Source of the DNA: an uncultured cyanobacterium | GTDB taxonomy: Bacteria > Cyanobacteriota > Cyanobacteriia > Cyanobacteriales > CAWCAG01 | Assembly (NCBI GenBank): GCA_963793425.1 | Contig: CAWCAG010000007.1 | Span: forward strand, 1-64,000 | Reading direction: 5' to 3' | DNA length: 64,000 bases | Shown: positions 1 to 13,156 of the stretch, in pieces | How positions within the stretch are numbered: the stretch's first letter is position 1 | Layout of the letters: the number at the start of each line of letters is the position of its first letter | Made by a program: the position numbers and the translations under genes | The notes under the pieces: generated by a model | The model's input: the letters and a program-made list of their open reading frames with translations, nothing else | What the model was told of the DNA's origin: nothing | The model's database searches: none

Positions 1-800
1 AATGAAATAAAGGATATAACCCCTGTTGCAACTCTAACTAATTTATATAGGCTTTACCTGGAGGAAAATGAAATAAAGGATATAACCCCTGTTGCAACTC
101 TAACTAATTTAGATGGGCTTGACCTGGGGGAAAATGAAATAAAGGATATAACCCCTGTTGCAACTCTAACTAATTTAGATGGGCTTGACCTGGGAGAAAA
201 TCAAATAGAGGATATAACCCCTGTTGCCACTCTAACTAATTTATATGAGCTTTACCTGGGAGAAAATCAAATAGAGGATATAACCCCTGTTGCCACTCTA
301 ACTAATTTATATAGGCTTTACCTGGAGGAAAATGAAATAAAGGATATAACCCCTGTTGCAACTCTAACTAATTTAGACTGGCTTGACCTGGGGGAAAATG
401 AAATAAAGGATATAACCCCTGTTGCAACTCTAACTAATTTATATGGGCTTCACCTGGAGGAAAATGAAATAAAGGATATAACTCCTGTTGCAACTCTAAC
501 TAATTTATATGAGCTTTACCTGGGGGTAAATGAAATAGAGGATATAACATCCCTATCTTCTTTAACTAATCTGACTGGGCTTGACCTGGGGGAAAATCAA
601 ATAAAGGATATAACCCCTTTGTCTTCTCTCACTAATTTGACTCGGCTTTGGCTGGGGGAAAATGAAATAGAGGATATAACATCCCTATCTTCTTTAACTA
701 ATTTAGGCTGGCTTGACCTGGGGGAAAATCAAATAAAGGATATAACCCCTTTGTCTTCTCTGACTAATTTGACTTGGCTTAAACTGTGGGGAAATCCAAA
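1..800 (+). repeat. 66-bp tandem coding repeat array, about 12 units
   Basis: Units start with AAT at 40, 106, 172 ... 766, with exact 66-bp period. Confidence 0.95.
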
Positions 801-864
801 GCTTACTAACAAAACTTGCCCAGTTGAACCGTCCTCTATTTGTATTTTTGAACCTTCTGAATAA
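1..864 (+). CDS. Internalin-type LRR protein A (5' end outside window)
   Basis: Frame open from base 1 to TAA 862-864. 22-aa repeats NLxxLxLxxNEIKDITPVATLT, then the cap KLWGNPKLTNKTCPVEPSSICIFEPSE. Confidence 0.9.
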   Translation, partial: NEIKDITPVATLTNLYRLYLEENEIKDITPVATLTNLDGLDLGENEIKDITPVATLTNLDGLDLGENQIEDITPVATLTNLYELYLGENQIEDITPVATLTNLYRLYLEENEIKDITPVATLTNLDWLDLGENEIKDITPVATLTNLYGLHLEENEIKDITPVATLTNLYELYLGVNEIEDITSLSSLTNLTGLDLGENQIKDITPLSSLTNLTRLWLGENEIEDITSLSSLTNLGWLDLGENQIKDITPLSSLTNLTWLKLWGNPKLTNKTCPVEPSSICIFEPSE

Positions 865-986
865 CTTTCCCCATCAGCTTCTTGATATTCCTCTAACAAA
901 AACTTAAACAACTACCTCTGGTACGCCCCTACTAAAAGACAACTTCCGTGTTTCAGTAAAATGTCCTTAAATCGAGGAATTGGCAA

Positions 987-2944
987 ATGAGAATTAACAA
1001 ACAAAGTCAGCGCTGGAGAGTAGTGATGTCTAAAATGAGCTTCTCCTTATGGAGACGCTACGCGAATGTTTATGCAGTTGTTGCTTTAGGTGTTGGTGGT
1101 AGTTGGCATCAAGCAACGGCTCAAGGGCAGCAGTTTGAAACCTTTGCTCAATGGTGCGAAAATCGAGAAACTTTAACCAGTGAGGCGCGACATACTGTTG
1201 AGGTTTTGTTGAGGGAAGCTGATACTGAAGATTGCCAGCTTGCTGAGGAGCAATTAACTAATTTGACTTCGCTTTACCTGGGGGCAAATGAAATAAAGGA
1301 TATAACTCCTATTGCAACTCTAACTAATTTGACTTCGCTTAACCTGGGGGGAAATGAAATAAAGGATATAACCCCTGTTGCCACTCTAACTAATTTAGAC
1401 TGGCTTCACCTGGGGGGAAATGAAATAAAGGATATAACTCCTGTTGCAACTCTAACTAATTTGACTTGGCTTTACCTGGGGGAAAATAAAATAAAGGATA
1501 TAACCTCTGTTGCAACTCTAACTAATTTAGGCGGGCTTAACCTGGGGGAAAATAAAATAAAGGATATAACTCCTGTTGCAACTCTAACTAATTTGACTTC
1601 GCTTAACCTGGAGGGAAATGAAATAAAGGATATAACTCCTGTTGCAACTCTAACTAATTTGACTTCCCTTAGCCTGTGGGAAAATCAAATAAAGGATATA
1701 ACTCCTGTTGCAACTCTAACTAATTTGACTTCGCTTAACCTGGGGGGAAATGAAATAAAGGATATAACCCCTGTTGCCACTCTAACTAATTTAGACTGGG
1801 CTTTACCTGGGGGAAAATGAAATAAAGGATATAACCCCTGTTGCAACTCTAACTAATTTGACTTGGGCTTAACCTGGGGGAAAATGAAATAAAGGATATA
1901 ACCCCTGTTGCAACTCTAACTAATTTGACTTCGCTTAACCTGGGGGGAAATGAAATAAAGGATATAACCCCTGTTGCAACTCTAACTAATTTGACTGGCT
2001 TAACCTGGGGGAAAATGAAATAAAGGATATAACCCCTGTTGCAACTCTAACTAATTTGACTTAGCTTGACCTGGGGGAAAATGAAATAAAGGATATAACC
2101 CCTGTTGCAACTCTAACTAATTTAGACTGGGCTTGACCTGGGGGAAAATCAAATAAAGGATATAACCCCTGTTGCAACTCTCACTAATTTGACTCGGCTT
2201 GACCTGGAGGGAAATGAAATAAAGGATATAACCCCTGTTGCAACTCTAACTAATTTAGACTGGCTTCACCTGGGGGAAAATGAAATAAAGGATATAACCC
2301 CTGTTGCAACTCTAACTAATTTAGACTGGCTTCACCTGGGGGAAAATGAAATAAAGGATATAACCCCTGTTGCAACTCTAACTAATTTGACTTGGCTTGA
2401 CCTGGGGGAAAATGAAATAAAGGATATAACCCCTGTTGCAACTCTAACTAATTTAACTAGGCTTCACCTGGGGGCAAATGAAATAAAGGATATAACCCCT
2501 GTTGCAACTCTAACTAATTTGACTTCGCTTGACCTGGGGGCAAATGAAATAAAGGATATAACCCCTGTTGCAACTCTAACTAATTTAACTAGGCTTGACC
2601 TGGGGGAAAATGAAATAAAGGATATAACCCCTGTTGCAACTCTAACTAATTTATACTGGCTTTACCTGGGGGAAAATGAAATAAAGGATATAACCCCTGT
2701 TGCAACTCTAACTAATTTAATTTGGCTTGACCTGGGGGAAAATGAAATAAAGGATATTACCCCTTTATCTTCTCTCACTAATTTGAATTTGCTTGAGCTG
2801 GGGGAAAATGAAATAGAGGATATTACCCCTTTGTCTTCTCTCACTAATTTGACTGAGCTTAAACTGTGGGGAAATCCAAAGCTTACTAACAAAACTTGCC
2901 CAGTTGAACCACAATCTATTTGTATTTTTGAACCTTCTGAATAA
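987..2944 (+). pseudogene. Secreted internalin-type LRR protein B, about 25 LRRs; frame disrupted at 1797-2131 (real or assembly artefact)
   Basis: ORFs 987..1820 and 2189..2944 are one array. Signal-like N-terminus (ATA-Q), Cys N-cap (WC...DC), same C-cap as gene A. Indels near 1800, 1866, 1997 and 2131; TAG at 2062-2064 in repeat register. Confidence 0.85.
1260..2880 (+). repeat. 66-bp tandem coding repeat array, 24 full units plus a terminal unit
   Basis: Unit starts 1260, 1326 ... 1788, 1855, 1922, 1988, 2053, 2119, 2186 ... 2846. Confidence 0.95.
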
Positions 2945-3180
2945 CTTTCCCCATCAACCCCTCAATATCCCCATAACAATAAAGTTAAGCAACAACCAAC
3001 TTGTAGCAGACTCTTTTCTATTTCACATCACAGCCCTTAAGAAATGAGATTAGTCATTAACTATAGCGATAAATCCTTATCTATGAGAGGATAGCCAATT
3101 GTATAGGAAAAATACCTTTGTGGTTTTCCTCTAAGTTTGTTATTCTTCAGCTTTCATACCCCAGCCTTCTGCTATTAAAT

Positions 3181-4971
3181 ATGCAACCGCAAAACTTGCT
3201 GCATCGGACAAAGATTGTTGCCACCATTGGCCCTGCTACAGCTAAACCGGAAGTGCTTCGTAGGCTTATTGAAGCCGGGGCAACTACTTTGCGGCTCAAC
3301 TTTTCCCACGGAACTCATGAAGATCACCAGCGTAGTATACGCTTAATTCGTCAGACAGCTTTTGAGTTGAATACTCCTGTGGGTATTCTCCAAGACTTAC
3401 AAGGGCCAAAAATTCGCTTAGGTAAGTTTGAAGGTGGCCCCATCAAATTAGAAAAAGGTGATCCTTATATTATCACCAGTCGCCAAGTTCCCTGTACCCA
3501 AGAAATTGGCTTTGTTAGCTATAAACCCATAGCAGAAGAAGTCCCTGAAGGAGCAAAAATTCTCCTTGATGATGGCAAAGTGGAAATGCTGGTGGAAAAG
3601 GTTGATCCTAGTCGCCAAGAATTACATTGTCGTGTGGTTGTTGAAGGTATTCTTTCTGATAATAAAGGGGTTAACTTCCCCGGAGTTTATCTTTCTGTCC
3701 GTGCTTTAACGGAAAAAGATCGTACTGATTTAACTTTTGGTTTAGATCAAGGGGTTGATTGGATTGCTTTGAGTTTTGTTTGCAACCCCCAAGATGTCTT
3801 AGAAATTAAAGAATTAATTGCTAGTGCCGGTAAATCAGTTCCAGTAATTGTCAAAATTGAAAAACATGAAGCTATTGAACAGATGGAAGCTATCCTTTCT
3901 TTGTCTGATGGGGTAATGGTAGCCAGGGGAGATTTAGGGGTAGAGTTACCAGCCGAGGATGTACCAATTTTACAAAAACGTCTCATTCGTACTGCCAATG
4001 AGTTAGGGATTCCTGTCATCACCGCAACACAAATGCTTGACAGTATGTTAAACAACCCCCGCCCCACCCGTGCTGAAGTTTCTGATGTTGCCAATGCTAT
4101 CCTTGATGGTACAGATGCAGTCATGCTCTCTAATGAAACTGCGGTGGGTAAGTATCCTGTCGAAGCTGTGGGTACAATGGCGAAAATTGCTGCTCGCATT
4201 GAACAGGAACAAACCCCTCCTATTCGGGAGCGTCCCCGCAGACGCTCTATTACCCATGCTATTTCCCAAGCAGTAAGTCAGATTGCCGCAGAGTTAGATG
4301 CCGCAGCGATTATGACTTTAACCAAAAGTGGGGCCACTGCCCGGAATGTTTCTAAGTTCCGACCTCAAACTCGCATTTTAGCAGTTACTCCCCATGTTCA
4401 TGTAGCAAGGCAATTACAGCTAGTTTGGGGTGTGAAGCCTCTGTTAGTCCTGGATCTTCCTTCTGCGGGTCAAACCTTCCAAGCAGCGATTAACGTGGCA
4501 CAGGAGCTTAATCTGCTCTCTGAGAGGGATTTAGTCGTCATGACAGCAGGAACTCTCCAAGGGGTTTCTGGTTCCACTGACTTGATTAAAGTAGAAGTGG
4601 TTACTTCTGTTTTAGGGCAAGGCATTGGCATTGGGGAAGGCTCTGTAAGTGGTTTGGCAAGGGTAGTTCATTACCCTGAAGAAATTGGTCATTTTAATCC
4701 TGGAGAAATTTTAGTCGCCCCTTCTACCAATGCAAACTTTATTGAGGTGATTCGTAAAGCCGGGGGGATTATCACTGAAGAAGAAAGCCTGACTAGTCAT
4801 GCAGCAATCATTGGTTTGCGTTTAGGCATTCCGGTAATTGTGGGGGTAAAAAAAGCGACGGAGGTAATTAGGGAAGGGGCAATTCTAACTTTAGATGCCC
4901 AACAAGGGGTAATTTATTCTGGGGCAACAGCATCAAATCAACCTAATCCTGGTATGACACCAATTCTTTGA
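3181..4971 (+). CDS. pyk: Pyruvate kinase with C-terminal PEP-utilising swivel domain
   Basis: RTKIVATIGPA, RLNFSHG, MVARGDLGVE, TSHAAI; likely ATG at 3181. Confidence 0.97.
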   Translation: MQPQNLLHRTKIVATIGPATAKPEVLRRLIEAGATTLRLNFSHGTHEDHQRSIRLIRQTAFELNTPVGILQDLQGPKIRLGKFEGGPIKLEKGDPYIITSRQVPCTQEIGFVSYKPIAEEVPEGAKILLDDGKVEMLVEKVDPSRQELHCRVVVEGILSDNKGVNFPGVYLSVRALTEKDRTDLTFGLDQGVDWIALSFVCNPQDVLEIKELIASAGKSVPVIVKIEKHEAIEQMEAILSLSDGVMVARGDLGVELPAEDVPILQKRLIRTANELGIPVITATQMLDSMLNNPRPTRAEVSDVANAILDGTDAVMLSNETAVGKYPVEAVGTMAKIAARIEQEQTPPIRERPRRRSITHAISQAVSQIAAELDAAAIMTLTKSGATARNVSKFRPQTRILAVTPHVHVARQLQLVWGVKPLLVLDLPSAGQTFQAAINVAQELNLLSERDLVVMTAGTLQGVSGSTDLIKVEVVTSVLGQGIGIGEGSVSGLARVVHYPEEIGHFNPGEILVAPSTNANFIEVIRKAGGIITEEESLTSHAAIIGLRLGIPVIVGVKKATEVIREGAILTLDAQQGVIYSGATASNQPNPGMTPIL

Positions 4972-5016: not shown

Positions 5017-5652
5017 TTACTGATCGCTGTTAACTGAAGTTGCCCACTCTCTTATTTTCTTGCGGATCATTCTTCTGCCTTCGGTACGATATTGATTAAT
5101 TATCAGAGGAATTTGTTGGACAGGAAGATTAGGAAAAACTAAACTCTGTTGCGATTCTTGATATTCCTCATTTTCTCCTAACAAATAAACCTTGAGTTTT
5201 CCTTGGGTGTAACACCACAATTCCGGTATTCCCAAACGAGCATATATCGGAAAACGATTTAAAGATTTATTAGTAATATCAATTTCTAAAATTAAATCTG
5301 GAGGAGGATCTTGGTCTAAATCATAAGCTAATTTACCCCGAATCTTCGATTCATTTTGAAAGTAAAAACAATTATCTGGCTCAATACCTGCCATTTTTGC
5401 TTGTTTACGCCAAGTAGTTGAGCCTAAACTTTCATAATCTCTTTCTAAGACTTCGGCAATATCTTGAATAGCAATACCAATATTTTCTTTATAATATTCG
5501 TGTTCGGGCAAGGGAGTCATTATTTCTAACGTTCCGTTATCATAGGCAAGACGGGCTGCACGACTTTCCCCTAAATTGACCAAGATATTCTCAAATTGTT
5601 GCCAACTAAAGTTATGTAATAATACTCTATCTGCACGACGTTGAGTAAGCAT
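5017..5652 (-). CDS. Uma2 family endonuclease-like protein
   Basis: LEIMTPLPEHE, EPDNCFY, PPPDLILEIDIT, YARLGIPELW. Confidence 0.9.
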   Translation of the reverse strand: MLTQRRADRVLLHNFSWQQFENILVNLGESRAARLAYDNGTLEIMTPLPEHEYYKENIGIAIQDIAEVLERDYESLGSTTWRKQAKMAGIEPDNCFYFQNESKIRGKLAYDLDQDPPPDLILEIDITNKSLNRFPIYARLGIPELWCYTQGKLKVYLLGENEEYQESQQSLVFPNLPVQQIPLIINQYRTEGRRMIRKKIREWATSVNSDQ

Positions 5653-11520: not shown

Positions 11521-12147
11521 TTAAATAACAGCATTAAGCACTTCTTCAGCAGTCAACTTCAAACCAGGAAAAGTAGCAGAAGCAATAGCCTGCTCACCTC
11601 TAAGCAACTCAATCTCATACTCGCCATTAACCAATCTACACACAGAAAGAGTAGGTTGTTTCGGCTTACCAATATACCGAATGCCCCCTAATCCTGCATA
11701 ATCAACAATCCAATATTCAGGGATTCCTAAAGCTGCATAATCTTCAACTTTACGGGCATAATCATTTTGCCAATTACTGCTAACCACTTCCGCCACAAAC
11801 TTAAGGGAACTTCCCCTGGTGAGAATCGACTGTTCAGCCCAAAGTGGTTCCTTAACTAATTCGGCTTTATCAACTACTGCCATATCAGGTCGAAATGCTG
11901 TCATAGTAGCATTAGCAGGACGTAATAAACACCGTTGCAAGACAAACCAAGGTAACTCTGCTTTGTCAATCTCAACACAGGCTTTCGTGGTAATGAAAGC
12001 TGCAACCTCCTCATGTTGCCCTGTAGGTTCCAAATCAAATACTTCTCCATCAATTAGTTCATAGCGTTTATCGTCACCATAATGGTTGACAAACTCATCA
12101 AAGCTAAAGGATTTTTGTTCTATTAGTCGTTTGCTTGCAAGGGTCAT
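11521..12147 (-). CDS. Uma2 family endonuclease-like protein
   Basis: RYELIDGE, FRPD, VAEVVSSNWQNDYARKVEDYAALGIPEYWIVD; likely ATG at 12147. Confidence 0.9.
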   Translation of the reverse strand: MTLASKRLIEQKSFSFDEFVNHYGDDKRYELIDGEVFDLEPTGQHEEVAAFITTKACVEIDKAELPWFVLQRCLLRPANATMTAFRPDMAVVDKAELVKEPLWAEQSILTRGSSLKFVAEVVSSNWQNDYARKVEDYAALGIPEYWIVDYAGLGGIRYIGKPKQPTLSVCRLVNGEYEIELLRGEQAIASATFPGLKLTAEEVLNAVI

Positions 12148-12252
12148 AAACTTATTCAGGGTTGGTCTAATGCTAGAAATCGACAATCTACTTTCAGTGT
12201 TGAATGCCCAATTATACTATTAGCTGTAAGCTTTACGCTTCATCTAGAAAAG

Positions 12253-13156
12253 CTAAAGTTTCTCAATCTCTTCTCTACTCAGTCCGGTCGACTTCTGCGA
12301 TCGCATCAATATCAGTACCTTTTTGTTTTAAGCTTCTGGCTATGTTAATCTTTTCCTGCTGTTTGCCTTGCTCCATACCTTCCTTAATCCCTTTCTCTAT
12401 CCCCTCTTCTAAACCTTCCAATTTTCCCTCTGAACGCGAACTTTCGATAATACTCACCTCATAACGCCTATTCTCCATAAATCTCAGGTAGTTGGCTCTT
12501 TCTTCTTCACTCAAGCTATCTACTAACAAATTTTCCTTCGCTTCTGCTAATCCTTGGGCGGTAAATTCTTCTTTGATTTGGCTTTTTTTCAGGAAATAGA
12601 TCCATTCATCTAGGGTATCTTTAGCTACATCGCTGAAGTTGTTTACTTTAATCACATAGTATTCTGGGAAGATTTCATATACTTGTTGAATCTTAAACAG
12701 TTTCTTCTGATTTATTGATAACCCTAAAGAGTCATCTAAGTGCAGACCTCGAAAATCTAAATTTCCCTTGTAAATATAATCATCCCCCTGTCCCAAGGAG
12801 AAGTAAACTACGTTCACCGAATAAACTTTTTTAACTTTGCTATAGGGCTGCCCTTTTTCCAGAAAATCGGTAATTAATCTCGCTGTGCCGTAGAGCATCC
12901 GATGAAAATAATCTTGCTCTGCACTGTTCTGCACTTCAATGAGAATTAATTCTCCTTGGTCATTTTCTGCAACAATATCAACTCGATTTAACTTGTCTTC
13001 CTCTGCTTGGCGATTACTCTCACTTTCAAGTATGGATTGAATCTTAATTTGTTTACCCAATAACTCACTCAAGAAACCTGCCAAAACGACGTAATTAGCT
13101 TTGTTTCTCAGTAACTTTTTAATAGCCCAATCAAATCTGATGTGTGTTTGGGGCAT
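12253..13156 (-). CDS. Rpn/YhgA-like PD-(D/E)XK nuclease; 1-nt indel near the C-terminus
   Basis: RFDWAIKKLLR, RVDIV, IEVQ, EGxxxG repeats, IARSLK. The canonical tail GLSREEIEKL* lies in another frame ending at 12253. Confidence 0.85.

What the first reader, a model, noticed from the sequence alone, without database searches (positions are those of the whole stretch)
1..2944. Tandem LRR genes with homogenised scaffold and hypervariable ligand-face codons (VLR-like variable receptors?)
Seen: about 37 units of 66 bp in two adjacent paralogs. Scaffold codons are almost invariant, even at silent sites. Variation concentrates in the x codons of LxxLxLxxN. Codon 4 is mostly NNG (AGG, GGG, TGG, CGG, GAG, TCG, TTG; one TCC), codon 6 mostly NAC (Y/D/H/N), codon 9 GNA (E/A/G/V). 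Variants recur in shuffled combinations; both genes share a near-identical C-cap and 3' flank. Known: these positions form the concave binding sheet of internalin-type LRRs. Inference: concerted evolution with unit shuffling or targeted diversification generates a repertoire of secreted binders.
Basis: partly seen in the sequence, partly recalled or inferred. Interest (0 to 1): 0.78.

Follow-up and report, generated by a model that had tools for sequence, protein, structure and literature searches.

The report
Homogenised secreted LRR genes, variable binding face
Two neighbouring cyanobacterial genes encode secreted leucine-rich-repeat binding proteins whose repeats are nearly identical except on the ligand-binding face; this is a known way of evolving binders fast, and no special mutation machinery is seen.

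Summary
The region holds 37 units of 66 nt: 35 LRR units and two C-cap units, in two tandem genes. In 23 units of the main type, 13 of 18 x-codon columns vary against 5 of 48 scaffold columns (p = 2e-6).

- The window starts at a contig end, inside the array of gene 1.
- Gene 2 (987-2944) is broken by four single-base indels and one TAG. All lie in the most variable codon, in six central units. I judge them probably consensus errors of the metagenome assembly.

The proteins have a probable signal peptide, a helical N-cap, internalin-fold 22-residue LRRs (rmsd 0.7 Å to InlA) and a short two-cysteine C-cap. The family occurs in many filamentous cyanobacteria. Usually its arrays are ordinary, with 50-70% identity between units.

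Here one unit type has overwritten the arrays of three genes at two loci since the split from a same-genus relative. That is concerted evolution. The variable residues x6 and x8 lie on the concave β-strand.

I found no reverse transcriptase nearby, no adenine-specific pattern and no array of donor cassettes, so neither a DGR nor a VLR-like mechanism is supported. Positive selection is only suggestive (ω about 1.5-2.2). [quoted passage not shown] Similar arrays were noted earlier in this scan on phage DNA.

The parts
1..864 (+). Gene 1, 3' fragment: 11 LRR units of 22 aa plus the C-cap (…LWGNPKLTNKTCPVEPSSICIFEPSE*). Its 5' end is missing because the contig starts here.
   Evidence: Pfam LRR_4 at 4e-50.
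865..986 (.). Spacer between gene 1 and gene 2.
   Evidence: No convincing promoter or terminator match.
987..2944 (+). Gene 2 as a whole: signal-peptide-like N-terminus, N-cap, 24 LRR units and C-cap. It reads as two open frames (987-1820 and 2189-2944) because of the lesions listed below.
   Evidence: The intact 625-aa ortholog with 24 units lies at the same place, next to pyruvate kinase, in G001.
987..1121 (+). Probable Sec signal peptide: basic N-region, hydrophobic AVVALGVGG stretch, and ...ATA|QG. An alternative start is the ATG at 1026.
   Evidence: By inspection of the translation. Paralogs show the same pattern. No signal-peptide predictor was available.
1122..1253 (+). Helical N-cap with two conserved cysteines (F..WC....TV..LL....DC).
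   Evidence: In 60 family members F3, W6, C7, T20, V21, L24 and L25 are invariant and C33 is at least 90% conserved. The model shows helices H3-8, H15-28 and H33-41.
1254..2839 (+). Array of 24 units of 66 nt in gene 2. The central units are the most alike (edit distance 2-5) and the edge units the most divergent.
1782..2182 (+). Six central units that carry all five lesions: an extra G in GGG at 1798-1800, 1865-1867 and 2129-2131; one base missing in ACTGGC at 1994-1999; TAG at 2062-2064. All lie in or at the edge of codon x6.
   Evidence: Each lesion is one edit from in-frame alleles seen in other units.
2840..2944 (+). C-cap of gene 2 (LWGNPKLTNKTCPVEPQSICIFEPSE*), with two cysteines. It matches the C-cap region of gene 1 at 125 of 132 nt.
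3118..4971 (+). Pyruvate kinase gene, the syntenic anchor shared with G001. The likely true start is the ATG at 3181. It is not part of the system.

Best explanation
These are two tandem paralogs of a family of signal-peptide-bearing LRR proteins from filamentous cyanobacteria. Each protein has a helical N-cap, internalin-fold repeats of 22 residues and a short two-cysteine C-cap.

In this lineage one unit type (…NEIKDITPVATLTNL…) has been copied over most of the arrays of gene 1, gene 2 and a third gene on contig C9. The likely means are unequal crossing-over and gene conversion within and between the genes. This keeps the scaffold DNA nearly uniform, a state called high internal conservation.

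Differences survive almost only in five or six codons per unit (x5, x6, x8, x10, x11, x13). These codons encode the concave beta-strand and its edges. Each unit therefore adds a different stripe to one long binding surface, and shuffling units makes new surfaces quickly.

The diversity comes from ordinary point mutation and recombination. It is retained by relaxed or diversifying selection, not by a dedicated mutator. The ligand is unknown.

The five lesions in the middle of gene 2 are most likely consensus errors. They lie where a metagenome assembly could not separate near-identical units or strains.

Shown: the repeat anatomy, the fold, the concentration of variation, the concerted evolution and the absence of diversification machinery. 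Inferred: secretion, binding, selection and the artefact status of the lesions.
For: Anatomy and statistics.

Fold:
- Pfam LRR_4 and LRR_8 match.
- By sequence, InlA is the best solved structure at E = 5e-87.
- The AlphaFold model of 1137-1799, built with a 60-sequence alignment, has pLDDT 98.4. Its strands fall exactly on x6-L7-x8 of each unit.
- Foldseek gives InlA at rmsd 0.7 Å over 183 columns and InlC2 at TM 0.86 including the cap.

Concerted evolution:
- Mean identity between units is 0.84-0.86 within G000 genes, 0.72 within the G001 ortholog, and 0.74-0.75 between the two genomes.
- 23 of 32 units best match the one unit G001_3.
- Units of the C9 gene are up to 97% identical to gene 2 units. 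Its G001 counterpart next to the MiaB-like gene has only 3 units, of another subtype.
- The centre of the array is the most uniform and the edges the most divergent.

Family context:
- 60 loci were found in named genomes, all of filamentous cyanobacteria by their record titles.
- Of 59 arrays there, only 1 reaches 0.80 mean unit identity. The arrays here are at 0.84-0.90.
- Homogenised arrays with other scaffolds recur in G033, G017 and G015.

No machinery.

Lesions:
- All five lie in six adjacent central units and in the most polymorphic codon. Each is one edit from observed alleles.
- The ortholog is intact.
- Passages of PMC12222747 report single-base homopolymer misassemblies in arrays of this kind in long-read data.
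Against: Selection is not proven. By allele counts omega_x is 1.5 (p = 0.13) in all units and 2.2 (p = 0.03) in PVAT units. Relaxed constraint alone could give most of the pattern.

Silent changes also look enriched in x codons: 5 over 3.4 silent sites against 4 over 13 in the scaffold. A purely selective model does not predict that.

The lesions could be real. The C9 copy also has two single-base deletions. The public contigs I laid were too short to decide.

The number and order of units cannot be trusted fully, because the contig starts inside gene 1 and the genome comes from a metagenome.

Secretion rests on inspection only. No expression data were found: all four runs that hold the stretch are DNA.
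Confidence: 0.7

Rival explanations
1. A dedicated diversification system acts on the x codons. Candidates are DGR-type mutagenic retrohoming, VLR- or pilS-like copying from silent cassettes, or a local hypermutator.
For: The five lesions all hit codon x6. Silent changes look enriched in x codons. A promoterless LRR remnant lies upstream of the C9 gene and could act as a donor. In 3 of 4 metagenome runs, a contig with gene-2-specific letters carries the gene-1 letters at 2911-2914.
Against: The seven RT genes all lie far from both loci, and none is on contig C7. At x8 only the first base varies while the adjacent A is kept in 29 of 31 units, so the pattern is not adenine-specific. Variation is spread over more than 30 units with no template/variable pair. 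No cassette arrays exist in the genome. The neighbours are pyruvate kinase, Uma2, TPR, a solute-binding protein, L20 and ClpB. The remnant is simply cut off next to a TnpB gene. Contigs built from short words can be chimeric across the 54 identical bases.
Confidence: 0.06
2. Gene 2, and the C9 copy, are real pseudogenes in this strain. On this reading the arrays are decaying relics and the x-codon variation is neutral drift at unconstrained surface sites.
For: Gene 2 has four frameshifts and a stop. The C9 locus has two single-base deletions and a truncated upstream remnant. Omega_x is not clearly above 1. PMC12222747 also reports read-supported stop codons in one strain's array (passages).
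Against: The other roughly 1560 nt of gene 2 and the 864 nt of gene 1 have no lesion at all. The scaffold is under strong purifying constraint, with omega 0.05-0.15. Five lesions in one 3-nt codon position of six adjacent units is not how random decay looks.
Confidence: 0.2
3. The array itself is largely an assembly product. Unit number, unit order and some x-codon combinations were created by collapsing or expanding reads from several units or strains.
For: The contig begins inside the gene 1 array. The genome is held by sediment metagenome runs with strain-level differences in the flanks. The lesions look like mixtures of two alleles. In G001 the same locus appears twice at contig ends. The two copies are 99.1% alike, and the second shows a 133-nt deletion and single-base indels.
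Against: An intact 24-unit ortholog exists in G001. Homogenised arrays with the same variable positions occur in several unrelated assemblies. The edge units and both caps are anchored in unique sequence.
Confidence: 0.1

Closest known systems
Listeria internalins (InlA, InlB, InlC2/InlH): LRR domain with helical cap
   Same: The repeat has the same 22 residues (LxxLxLxxNxIxDIxPLxxLxN). The fold is the same: rmsd 0.7 Å over 183 columns at 47% identity to InlA, and TM 0.85-0.86 to InlB and InlC2 including the helical N-cap. The N-terminus looks like a signal peptide.
   Different: There is no Ig-like inter-repeat domain and no LPXTG or GW anchor. The protein ends in a cap of about 25 residues with two cysteines. 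All NCBIfam internalin models score far below their cut-offs, for example 534 against 1275 bits. Internalin repeats are not homogenised.
Repeats with high internal conservation (HIC): the WD40/ANK/TPR domains of fungal NLRs (Podospora HNWD genes) and the WD/TPR domains of bacterial NLRs
   Same: The repeats are near-identical. Variation is confined to a few codons on the binding face. Repeats are exchanged within and between paralogs, and repeat number differs between relatives. This matches the description in passages of PMC4986451 and of the preprint 10.1101/2020.01.06.895854.
   Different: The repeat type is LRR, which those papers say is absent from fungal and prokaryotic NLRs. There is no NACHT or NB-ARC module, and the protein is probably exported rather than cytoplasmic. 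Mean amino-acid identity between units is 0.74-0.81, just under their 85% criterion. Positive selection is not firmly shown here.
Lamprey variable lymphocyte receptors and the engineered repebodies built from them
   Same: A capped LRR solenoid has a fixed scaffold and diversity on the concave sheet. Repebody and InlB-VLR chimeras appear among the sequence hits.
   Different: VLR diversity is made somatically by copying flanking cassettes into an incomplete gene with cytidine deaminases (recalled, not from a call). Here I found no cassette array and no linked enzyme, and the diversity is in the germ-line sequence.
Homogenised LRR arrays of uncultured phages noted earlier in this scan (e1-5674195, e1-5642457, e1-5802017)
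   Same: The pattern is the same: tens of near-identical LRR units with a frozen frame and fast-changing exposed codons. Those notes also explain it by ordinary recombination and mutation (AI notes, not checked here).
   Different: Those arrays use 23-residue BspA/TpLRR or InlJ-type repeats in phage tail or binder genes. This one is a chromosomal, internalin-type, signal-peptide-bearing cyanobacterial family.
LRR domain of the Chlorobium tepidum Roco protein (PDB 5il7, 6hlu)
   Same: It is the second-best sequence match and the top structural match: E = 2e-78 by sequence, and TM 0.83 at 45% identity by structure.
   Different: Roco proteins are cytoplasmic LRR-Roc-COR GTPases. The genes here carry no such domains. 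A separate Roco-like gene of this genome has its own homogenised 23-residue array.

Membership tests
LRR proteins, internalin-type 22-residue class | Tandem 22-residue units with the LxxLxLxxNxIxDIxPLxxLxN consensus | tested here: met
   35 units of 66 nt. Consensus and per-position table. Pfam LRR_4 at 4e-50, 4e-38 and 1e-48, all above the cut-off.
LRR proteins, internalin-type 22-residue class | Solenoid fold with one short beta-strand per unit on the concave side | tested here: met
   The model has pLDDT 98.4 with a strand every 22 residues at x6-L7-x8. InlA matches at rmsd 0.7 Å over 183 columns.
Listeria internalin family | Ig-like inter-repeat domain directly after the LRR region | tested here: not met
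   Both genes end about 25 residues after the last unit with CPVEP..ICIFEPSE*. No non-LRR Pfam domain reaches its cut-off.
Listeria internalin family | Score above the curated cut-off of an NCBIfam internalin model | tested here: not met
   Best scores for the full G001 ortholog are 534 bits against a cut-off of 1275, 455 against 1600, and 352 against 1050.
Listeria internalin family | Signal peptide and helical N-terminal cap | tested here: inconclusive
   The cap is met: helices H3-8, H15-28 and H33-41, and TM 0.85-0.86 to capped InlB and InlC2. The signal peptide was judged by eye only.
High-internal-conservation (HIC) repeat arrays | Repeats at least about 85% identical to each other over at least 100 residues (criterion quoted in PMC4986451) | tested here: inconclusive
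   Mean identity between units is 0.84-0.90 at the nucleotide level and 0.74-0.81 at the amino-acid level. This is just under the criterion, because the variable positions make up about a quarter of a 22-residue unit.
High-internal-conservation (HIC) repeat arrays | Variation confined to positions of the binding surface | tested here: met
   13 of 18 x columns vary against 5 of 48 scaffold columns. x6 and x8 lie in the concave strand.
High-internal-conservation (HIC) repeat arrays | Concerted evolution: exchange of repeats within and between paralogs | tested here: met
   All 32 units are closer to a unit of their own genome than to any unit of the ortholog, and 23 of 32 point to one ortholog unit. 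Units of gene 1 and gene 2 are up to 98% alike, and units of gene 2 and the C9 gene up to 97%.
High-internal-conservation (HIC) repeat arrays | Positive diversifying selection at the variable codons | tested here: inconclusive
   pN(x)/pS(scaffold) is 1.7-3.2. By allele counts omega_x is 1.5 (p = 0.13) and 2.2 (p = 0.03).
High-internal-conservation (HIC) repeat arrays | Repeat-number differences between close relatives | tested here: met
   The gene next to the MiaB-like gene has 3 units in G001 against about 11 in G000. The two 99.1%-identical copies of the G001 locus differ by a 133-nt deletion. No strain series of this species was available.
Diversity-generating retroelement (DGR) target | A reverse transcriptase and a template repeat near the variable region | tested here: not met
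   The genome has 7 RT matches. None is on C7, and the nearest are about 190-310 kb from either locus. No array-like DNA lies near any of them.
Diversity-generating retroelement (DGR) target | Variation only at positions that are adenine in a template | tested here: not met
   In x8 (NAC) the first base takes all four values, while the adjacent A is kept in 29 of 31 units. In x11 (GNA) the final A never varies.
VLR-type or pilS/vls-type cassette systems | An expression site plus an array of silent donor cassettes | tested here: not met
   Scaffold-like DNA occurs only at C7:1-2944 and C9:634.4-636.1 kb. The one promoterless remnant there is cut off next to a TnpB gene.
VLR-type or pilS/vls-type cassette systems | Differences between cells of one clone (somatic change) | not testable with these tools
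   Only short contigs of four metagenome runs could be laid. No raw long reads or clonal cultures were available.

The most novel reading that the evidence does not exclude
Filamentous cyanobacteria may keep a fast-evolving exported repertoire of LRR binders. This would be an extracellular counterpart of the homogenised sensor repeats of fungal and bacterial NLRs. Array turnover between paralogs and strains would continually make new concave surfaces for recognising non-self such as phage, grazers or foreign filaments. On this reading, the cluster of lesions and silent changes in codon x6 reflects real heterogeneity within the population, or a local mutational hotspot, rather than assembly noise.
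Probability: 0.12. Interest if true: 0.7.

Novelty: new member of a known kind. Interest (0 to 1): 0.35.

Why it matters
Repeats with a frozen frame and a changing binding face mark proteins under pressure to recognise changing partners. They have been described for fungal and bacterial NLR sensors, lamprey VLRs and phage adhesins. I found no description for exported LRR proteins of cyanobacteria in four full-text searches.

The family is widespread in filamentous cyanobacteria and has no known ligand or function. The homogenised members show which residues are likely to contact the ligand, so they are the natural place to start experiments.

The case is also a warning for annotation. Such arrays break assemblies and collect spurious frameshifts, so they tend to be called pseudogenes or lost from draft genomes.

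Tried and rejected
- Laying public data. Only four DNA runs of one study hold the stretch, and only as short contigs. They could not show whether the five lesions are real or how many units a single molecule has. No indel row inside 1782-2182 was listed, but most contigs fit two places, so this says nothing either way.
- Single-sequence AlphaFold model of 2189-2941. It was poor (pLDDT 69; Foldseek TM 0.2-0.47) and was replaced by the alignment-based model.
- PADLOC. No meaningful hit; the only one was a DndG stretch at E = 0.0014.
- Promoter and terminator scan of 700-3300. No more sites than in shuffles.
- Protein search with the N-terminal 100 residues. Only 3 hits, named 'leucine-rich repeat domain-containing protein'.
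- Metagenome scan with the N-cap. It gave 11 loci, all distant at 35-78% identity, so no close strains to compare.
- Higher-order periodicity in the arrays. None was seen in the edit-distance matrices.
- DGR and cassette models. Rejected for the reasons given under the rival explanations.
- An early note of mine said that positions 3, 5, 7 and 8 are the most variable in all 19 arrays. The exact counts are 18, 17, 17 and 17 of 19.
Full report
WHAT IS THERE

The window is the first 64 kb of contig C7 of a 5.28-Mb genome in 9 contigs. Four sediment-metagenome DNA runs from one study hold the stretch.

Tandem Repeats Finder reports two arrays of period 66. One lies at 1-770 (11.7 copies, 87% matches) and one at 1255-2874 (24.5 copies, 91% matches, 1% indels). 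Anchoring on the invariant ACTAAT gives 37 units: 12 in gene 1 and 25 in gene 2. The last unit of each gene is a C-cap.

Gene 1 is open from the first base to the stop at 862-864. It lacks its 5' end because the contig starts inside its array.

Gene 2 starts at 987 and ends at 2944, but it reads as two open frames, 987-1820 and 2189-2944. Between them:
- three units are 67 nt long, with an extra G at 1798-1800, 1865-1867 and 2129-2131;
- one unit is 65 nt long (ACTGGC at 1994-1999);
- one unit carries TAG at 2062-2064.

THE PATTERN OF VARIATION

I use the register L1 T2 N3 L4 x5 x6 L7 x8 L9 x10 x11 N12 x13 I14 x15 D16 I17 T18 P19 V20 A21 T22. The counts below are on the 31 full units in register.

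Amino-acid entropy is 2.0, 2.5 and 2.3 bits at x5, x6 and x8. It is 0.8-1.3 bits at x10, x11 and x13. At ten scaffold positions it is zero.

- x6 is NNG in 30 of 31 units.
- x8 is NAC in 28 of 31.
- x11 is GNA in 31 of 31.

Variation is concentrated in the x codons:
- In the 23 units of the main 'PVAT' type, 13 of 18 x-codon columns vary against 5 of 48 scaffold columns (Fisher p = 2e-6). Nucleotide diversity is 0.287 against 0.029.
- In all 31 units the figures are 14 of 18 against 14 of 48 (p = 6e-4).
- There are 27 distinct x-haplotypes among the 31 units.
- Most pairs of x codons show all four combinations of some allele pairs, so alleles do recur in shuffled combinations.

Silent sites in the scaffold are quiet but not invariant. 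pS is 0.18 in all units and 0.10 in PVAT units.

The two C-cap regions agree at 125 of 132 nt. The 3' flanks agree only for about a dozen bases after the stop codon.

WHAT THE PROTEINS ARE

Pfam finds only LRR families, with LRR_4 at 1e-48 to 4e-50. The best solved relative by sequence is the LRR domain of Listeria InlA (5e-87). The LRR of the Chlorobium Roco protein follows.

I aligned residues 51-271 of gene 2 with 59 family members taken from fetched loci. The AlphaFold model built on this alignment has pLDDT 98.4 and pTM 0.93. It shows:
- a three-helix N-cap;
- one three-residue strand every 22 residues, falling exactly on x6-L7-x8;
- a short helix on T-P-V-A-T.

With L7 in the core, x6 and x8 point to the concave surface. 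x5, x10 and x11 flank the strand.

Foldseek places the model on InlA at rmsd 0.7 Å over 183 columns. It places it on InlB and InlC2, cap included, at TM 0.85-0.86.

The proteins are not internalins in the family sense:
- There is no Ig-like inter-repeat domain and no anchor. The chain ends about 25 residues after the last unit, in a cap with two cysteines.
- All NCBIfam internalin models score far below their cut-offs.

The N-terminus has a basic stretch, a hydrophobic stretch and an Ala-x-Ala site, as do the paralogs. The N-cap has an invariant cysteine and a nearly invariant one. I therefore infer export and disulfide-stabilised caps. No predictor or experiment supports this yet.

THE FAMILY AND ITS DYNAMICS

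The genome holds about a dozen genes of this architecture. Those on contig C5 have ordinary arrays, with 0.52-0.60 nucleotide identity between units. Gene 1, gene 2 and a gene at C9:634.4-635.5 kb have 0.84-0.90.

A same-genus genome, G001, has a single intact 625-aa gene with 24 units at the same place beside pyruvate kinase. Its units are 0.74 identical to each other.

Comparing the units of the two genomes shows no positional orthology:
- 23 of 32 G000 units have the one unit G001_3 as their best match.
- All 32 are closer to another unit of their own genome than to any G001 unit.
- Units of gene 1 and gene 2 reach 98% identity, and units of gene 2 and the C9 gene reach 97%.

The C9 gene sits next to a MiaB-like gene. 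Its G001 counterpart has only three units, of another subtype. So one unit type has spread within and between loci since the two species split. This is concerted evolution by unequal crossing-over and gene conversion.

The centre of the gene 2 array is the most uniform and its edges the most divergent, as that process predicts.

Across 60 loci from named genomes, all filamentous cyanobacteria by their record titles, 59 arrays could be measured. Only one reaches 0.80 mean unit identity; 10 lie at 0.7-0.8 and 48 below 0.7. Short-read assemblies probably under-represent homogenised arrays.

Homogenised arrays with different scaffolds recur in three other genomes of the order (0.82-0.89) and in one metagenome contig (0.83).

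In 19 arrays examined, positions 3, 5, 7 and 8 of LxxLxLxxN are among the six most variable in 18, 17, 17 and 17 arrays. The variable positions are therefore generic to the family. What is special here is how uniform the rest of the unit is.

SELECTION OR MUTATION

- The ratio of amino-acid diversity at x codons to silent diversity in the scaffold is 1.7 in all units and 3.2 in PVAT units.
- Counting alleles instead of pairs gives omega_x = 1.5 (p = 0.13) and 2.2 (p = 0.03). Scaffold omega is 0.05-0.15.
- This suggests diversifying selection but does not exclude simple lack of constraint.
- Silent changes also look enriched in x codons: 5 over 3.4 silent sites against 4 over 13. The numbers are small, and I leave this unexplained.

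NO DEDICATED MACHINERY

- The genome has seven RT matches. None is on C7, and the nearest are about 190-310 kb from either locus.
- The changes are not adenine-specific.
- Scaffold-like DNA exists only at the two loci.
- Neighbours in the window are pyruvate kinase, two Uma2-family genes, a TPR protein, a solute-binding protein, ribosomal protein L20 and ClpB. Neighbours at C9 are a MiaB-like gene, XisH/XisI and a TnpB gene that abuts a truncated LRR remnant.
- PADLOC finds nothing.

THE LESIONS

All five lesions lie in six adjacent central units, and in or at the edge of codon x6, the most polymorphic codon. The remaining roughly 1560 nt of gene 2 and all of gene 1 have none.

Each lesion is one edit away from in-frame alleles seen in other units:
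- The 13-mer found twice is one deletion from two different observed alleles.
- The stop is a prefix/suffix join of observed TGG or TCG alleles with GAG alleles.

By my own arithmetic, five random hits all falling in one 3-nt slot of a 66-nt unit would have a chance of about 2e-7. This fits a consensus built from reads of different units or strains. A mutational hotspot would also fit.

Other evidence bearing on this:
- Passages of PMC12222747 report both kinds of event in such arrays: a homopolymer misassembly in long-read data and read-supported stop codons.
- The laid contigs could not decide the matter.

My estimate is about 0.7 that the lesions are artefacts and about 0.2 that they are real.

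COMPARISON AND VERDICT

In how it works, this matches repeats with high internal conservation. These are described for fungal NLR WD40/ANK/TPR domains (PMC4986451, passages) and for bacterial NLR WD/TPR domains (preprint 10.1101/2020.01.06.895854, passages). Those texts state that LRRs are not found in those proteins.

The differences here are:
- the repeat type is LRR;
- there is no NTPase module;
- the protein is probably exported;
- amino-acid identity between units (0.74-0.81) is just under their 85% criterion.

The resemblance to VLRs is limited to the design of the protein. Notes of this scan describe the same pattern in phage LRR genes and reach the same ordinary explanation (not checked here). 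Four full-text searches found no description of this cyanobacterial family beyond a passing mention of 'internalins' in Nostoc gene clusters.

I file it as a new member of a known kind, of moderate interest.

Noticed in passing
G000 contig C5:1765162-1766499 (outside the window): An LRR-Roc-type gene has about 12 near-identical 23-residue units (LTNLTSLxLxxNQLTALPAEIVQ). They vary at the same x positions, so a second and unrelated LRR gene of this genome shows the same homogenised state.
   Followed up: no
L013 (G001:C11 end) and L014 (G001:C2 start): In the same-genus genome, the pyruvate-kinase/LRR locus is present at two contig ends that are 99.1% identical. One copy is intact. The other has single-base insertions, a 7-nt and a 133-nt deletion, and a different C-cap and 3' flank. 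These may be two strains or a duplicated locus.
   Followed up: partly
G000 contig C9:1141621-1141799 (contig end) and window 1: The end of contig C9 matches the gene that lies upstream of the LRR gene in G001. C9's end and C7's start are therefore probably neighbours, separated by a gap that holds the 5' part of gene 1.
   Followed up: partly
G000 contig C9:635741-637359 (L016): A truncated, frameshifted LRR remnant with a damaged C-cap lies directly beside a TnpB (IS605 OrfB) gene, upstream of the C9 LRR gene. The insertion probably cut it.
   Followed up: partly
window 2911-2914: In 3 of 4 metagenome runs, a contig with gene-2-specific letters at 2842 and 2855-2856 reads GTCC here instead of ACAA. 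GTCC is the gene 1 version, so this is either a short exchange between the paralogs in another strain or a chimeric contig.
   Followed up: partly
window units, codons L4-x5-x6 (e.g. 1389-1400 versus 1455-1466): The alleles TTA GAC TGG and TTG ACT TGG differ by four substitutions but by only one inserted and one deleted base. The silent TTA/TTG choice is tightly linked to x5: TTG goes with ACT in 12 units, and TTA with non-ACT codons in 15.
   Followed up: no
window 5017-5652 and 11521-12186 (- strand); 12275-13156 (- strand): Two Uma2-family putative endonuclease genes and a PD-(D/E)XK transposase-like gene lie within 13 kb of the locus. These are common in cyanobacteria, and I saw no link to the arrays.
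   Followed up: no
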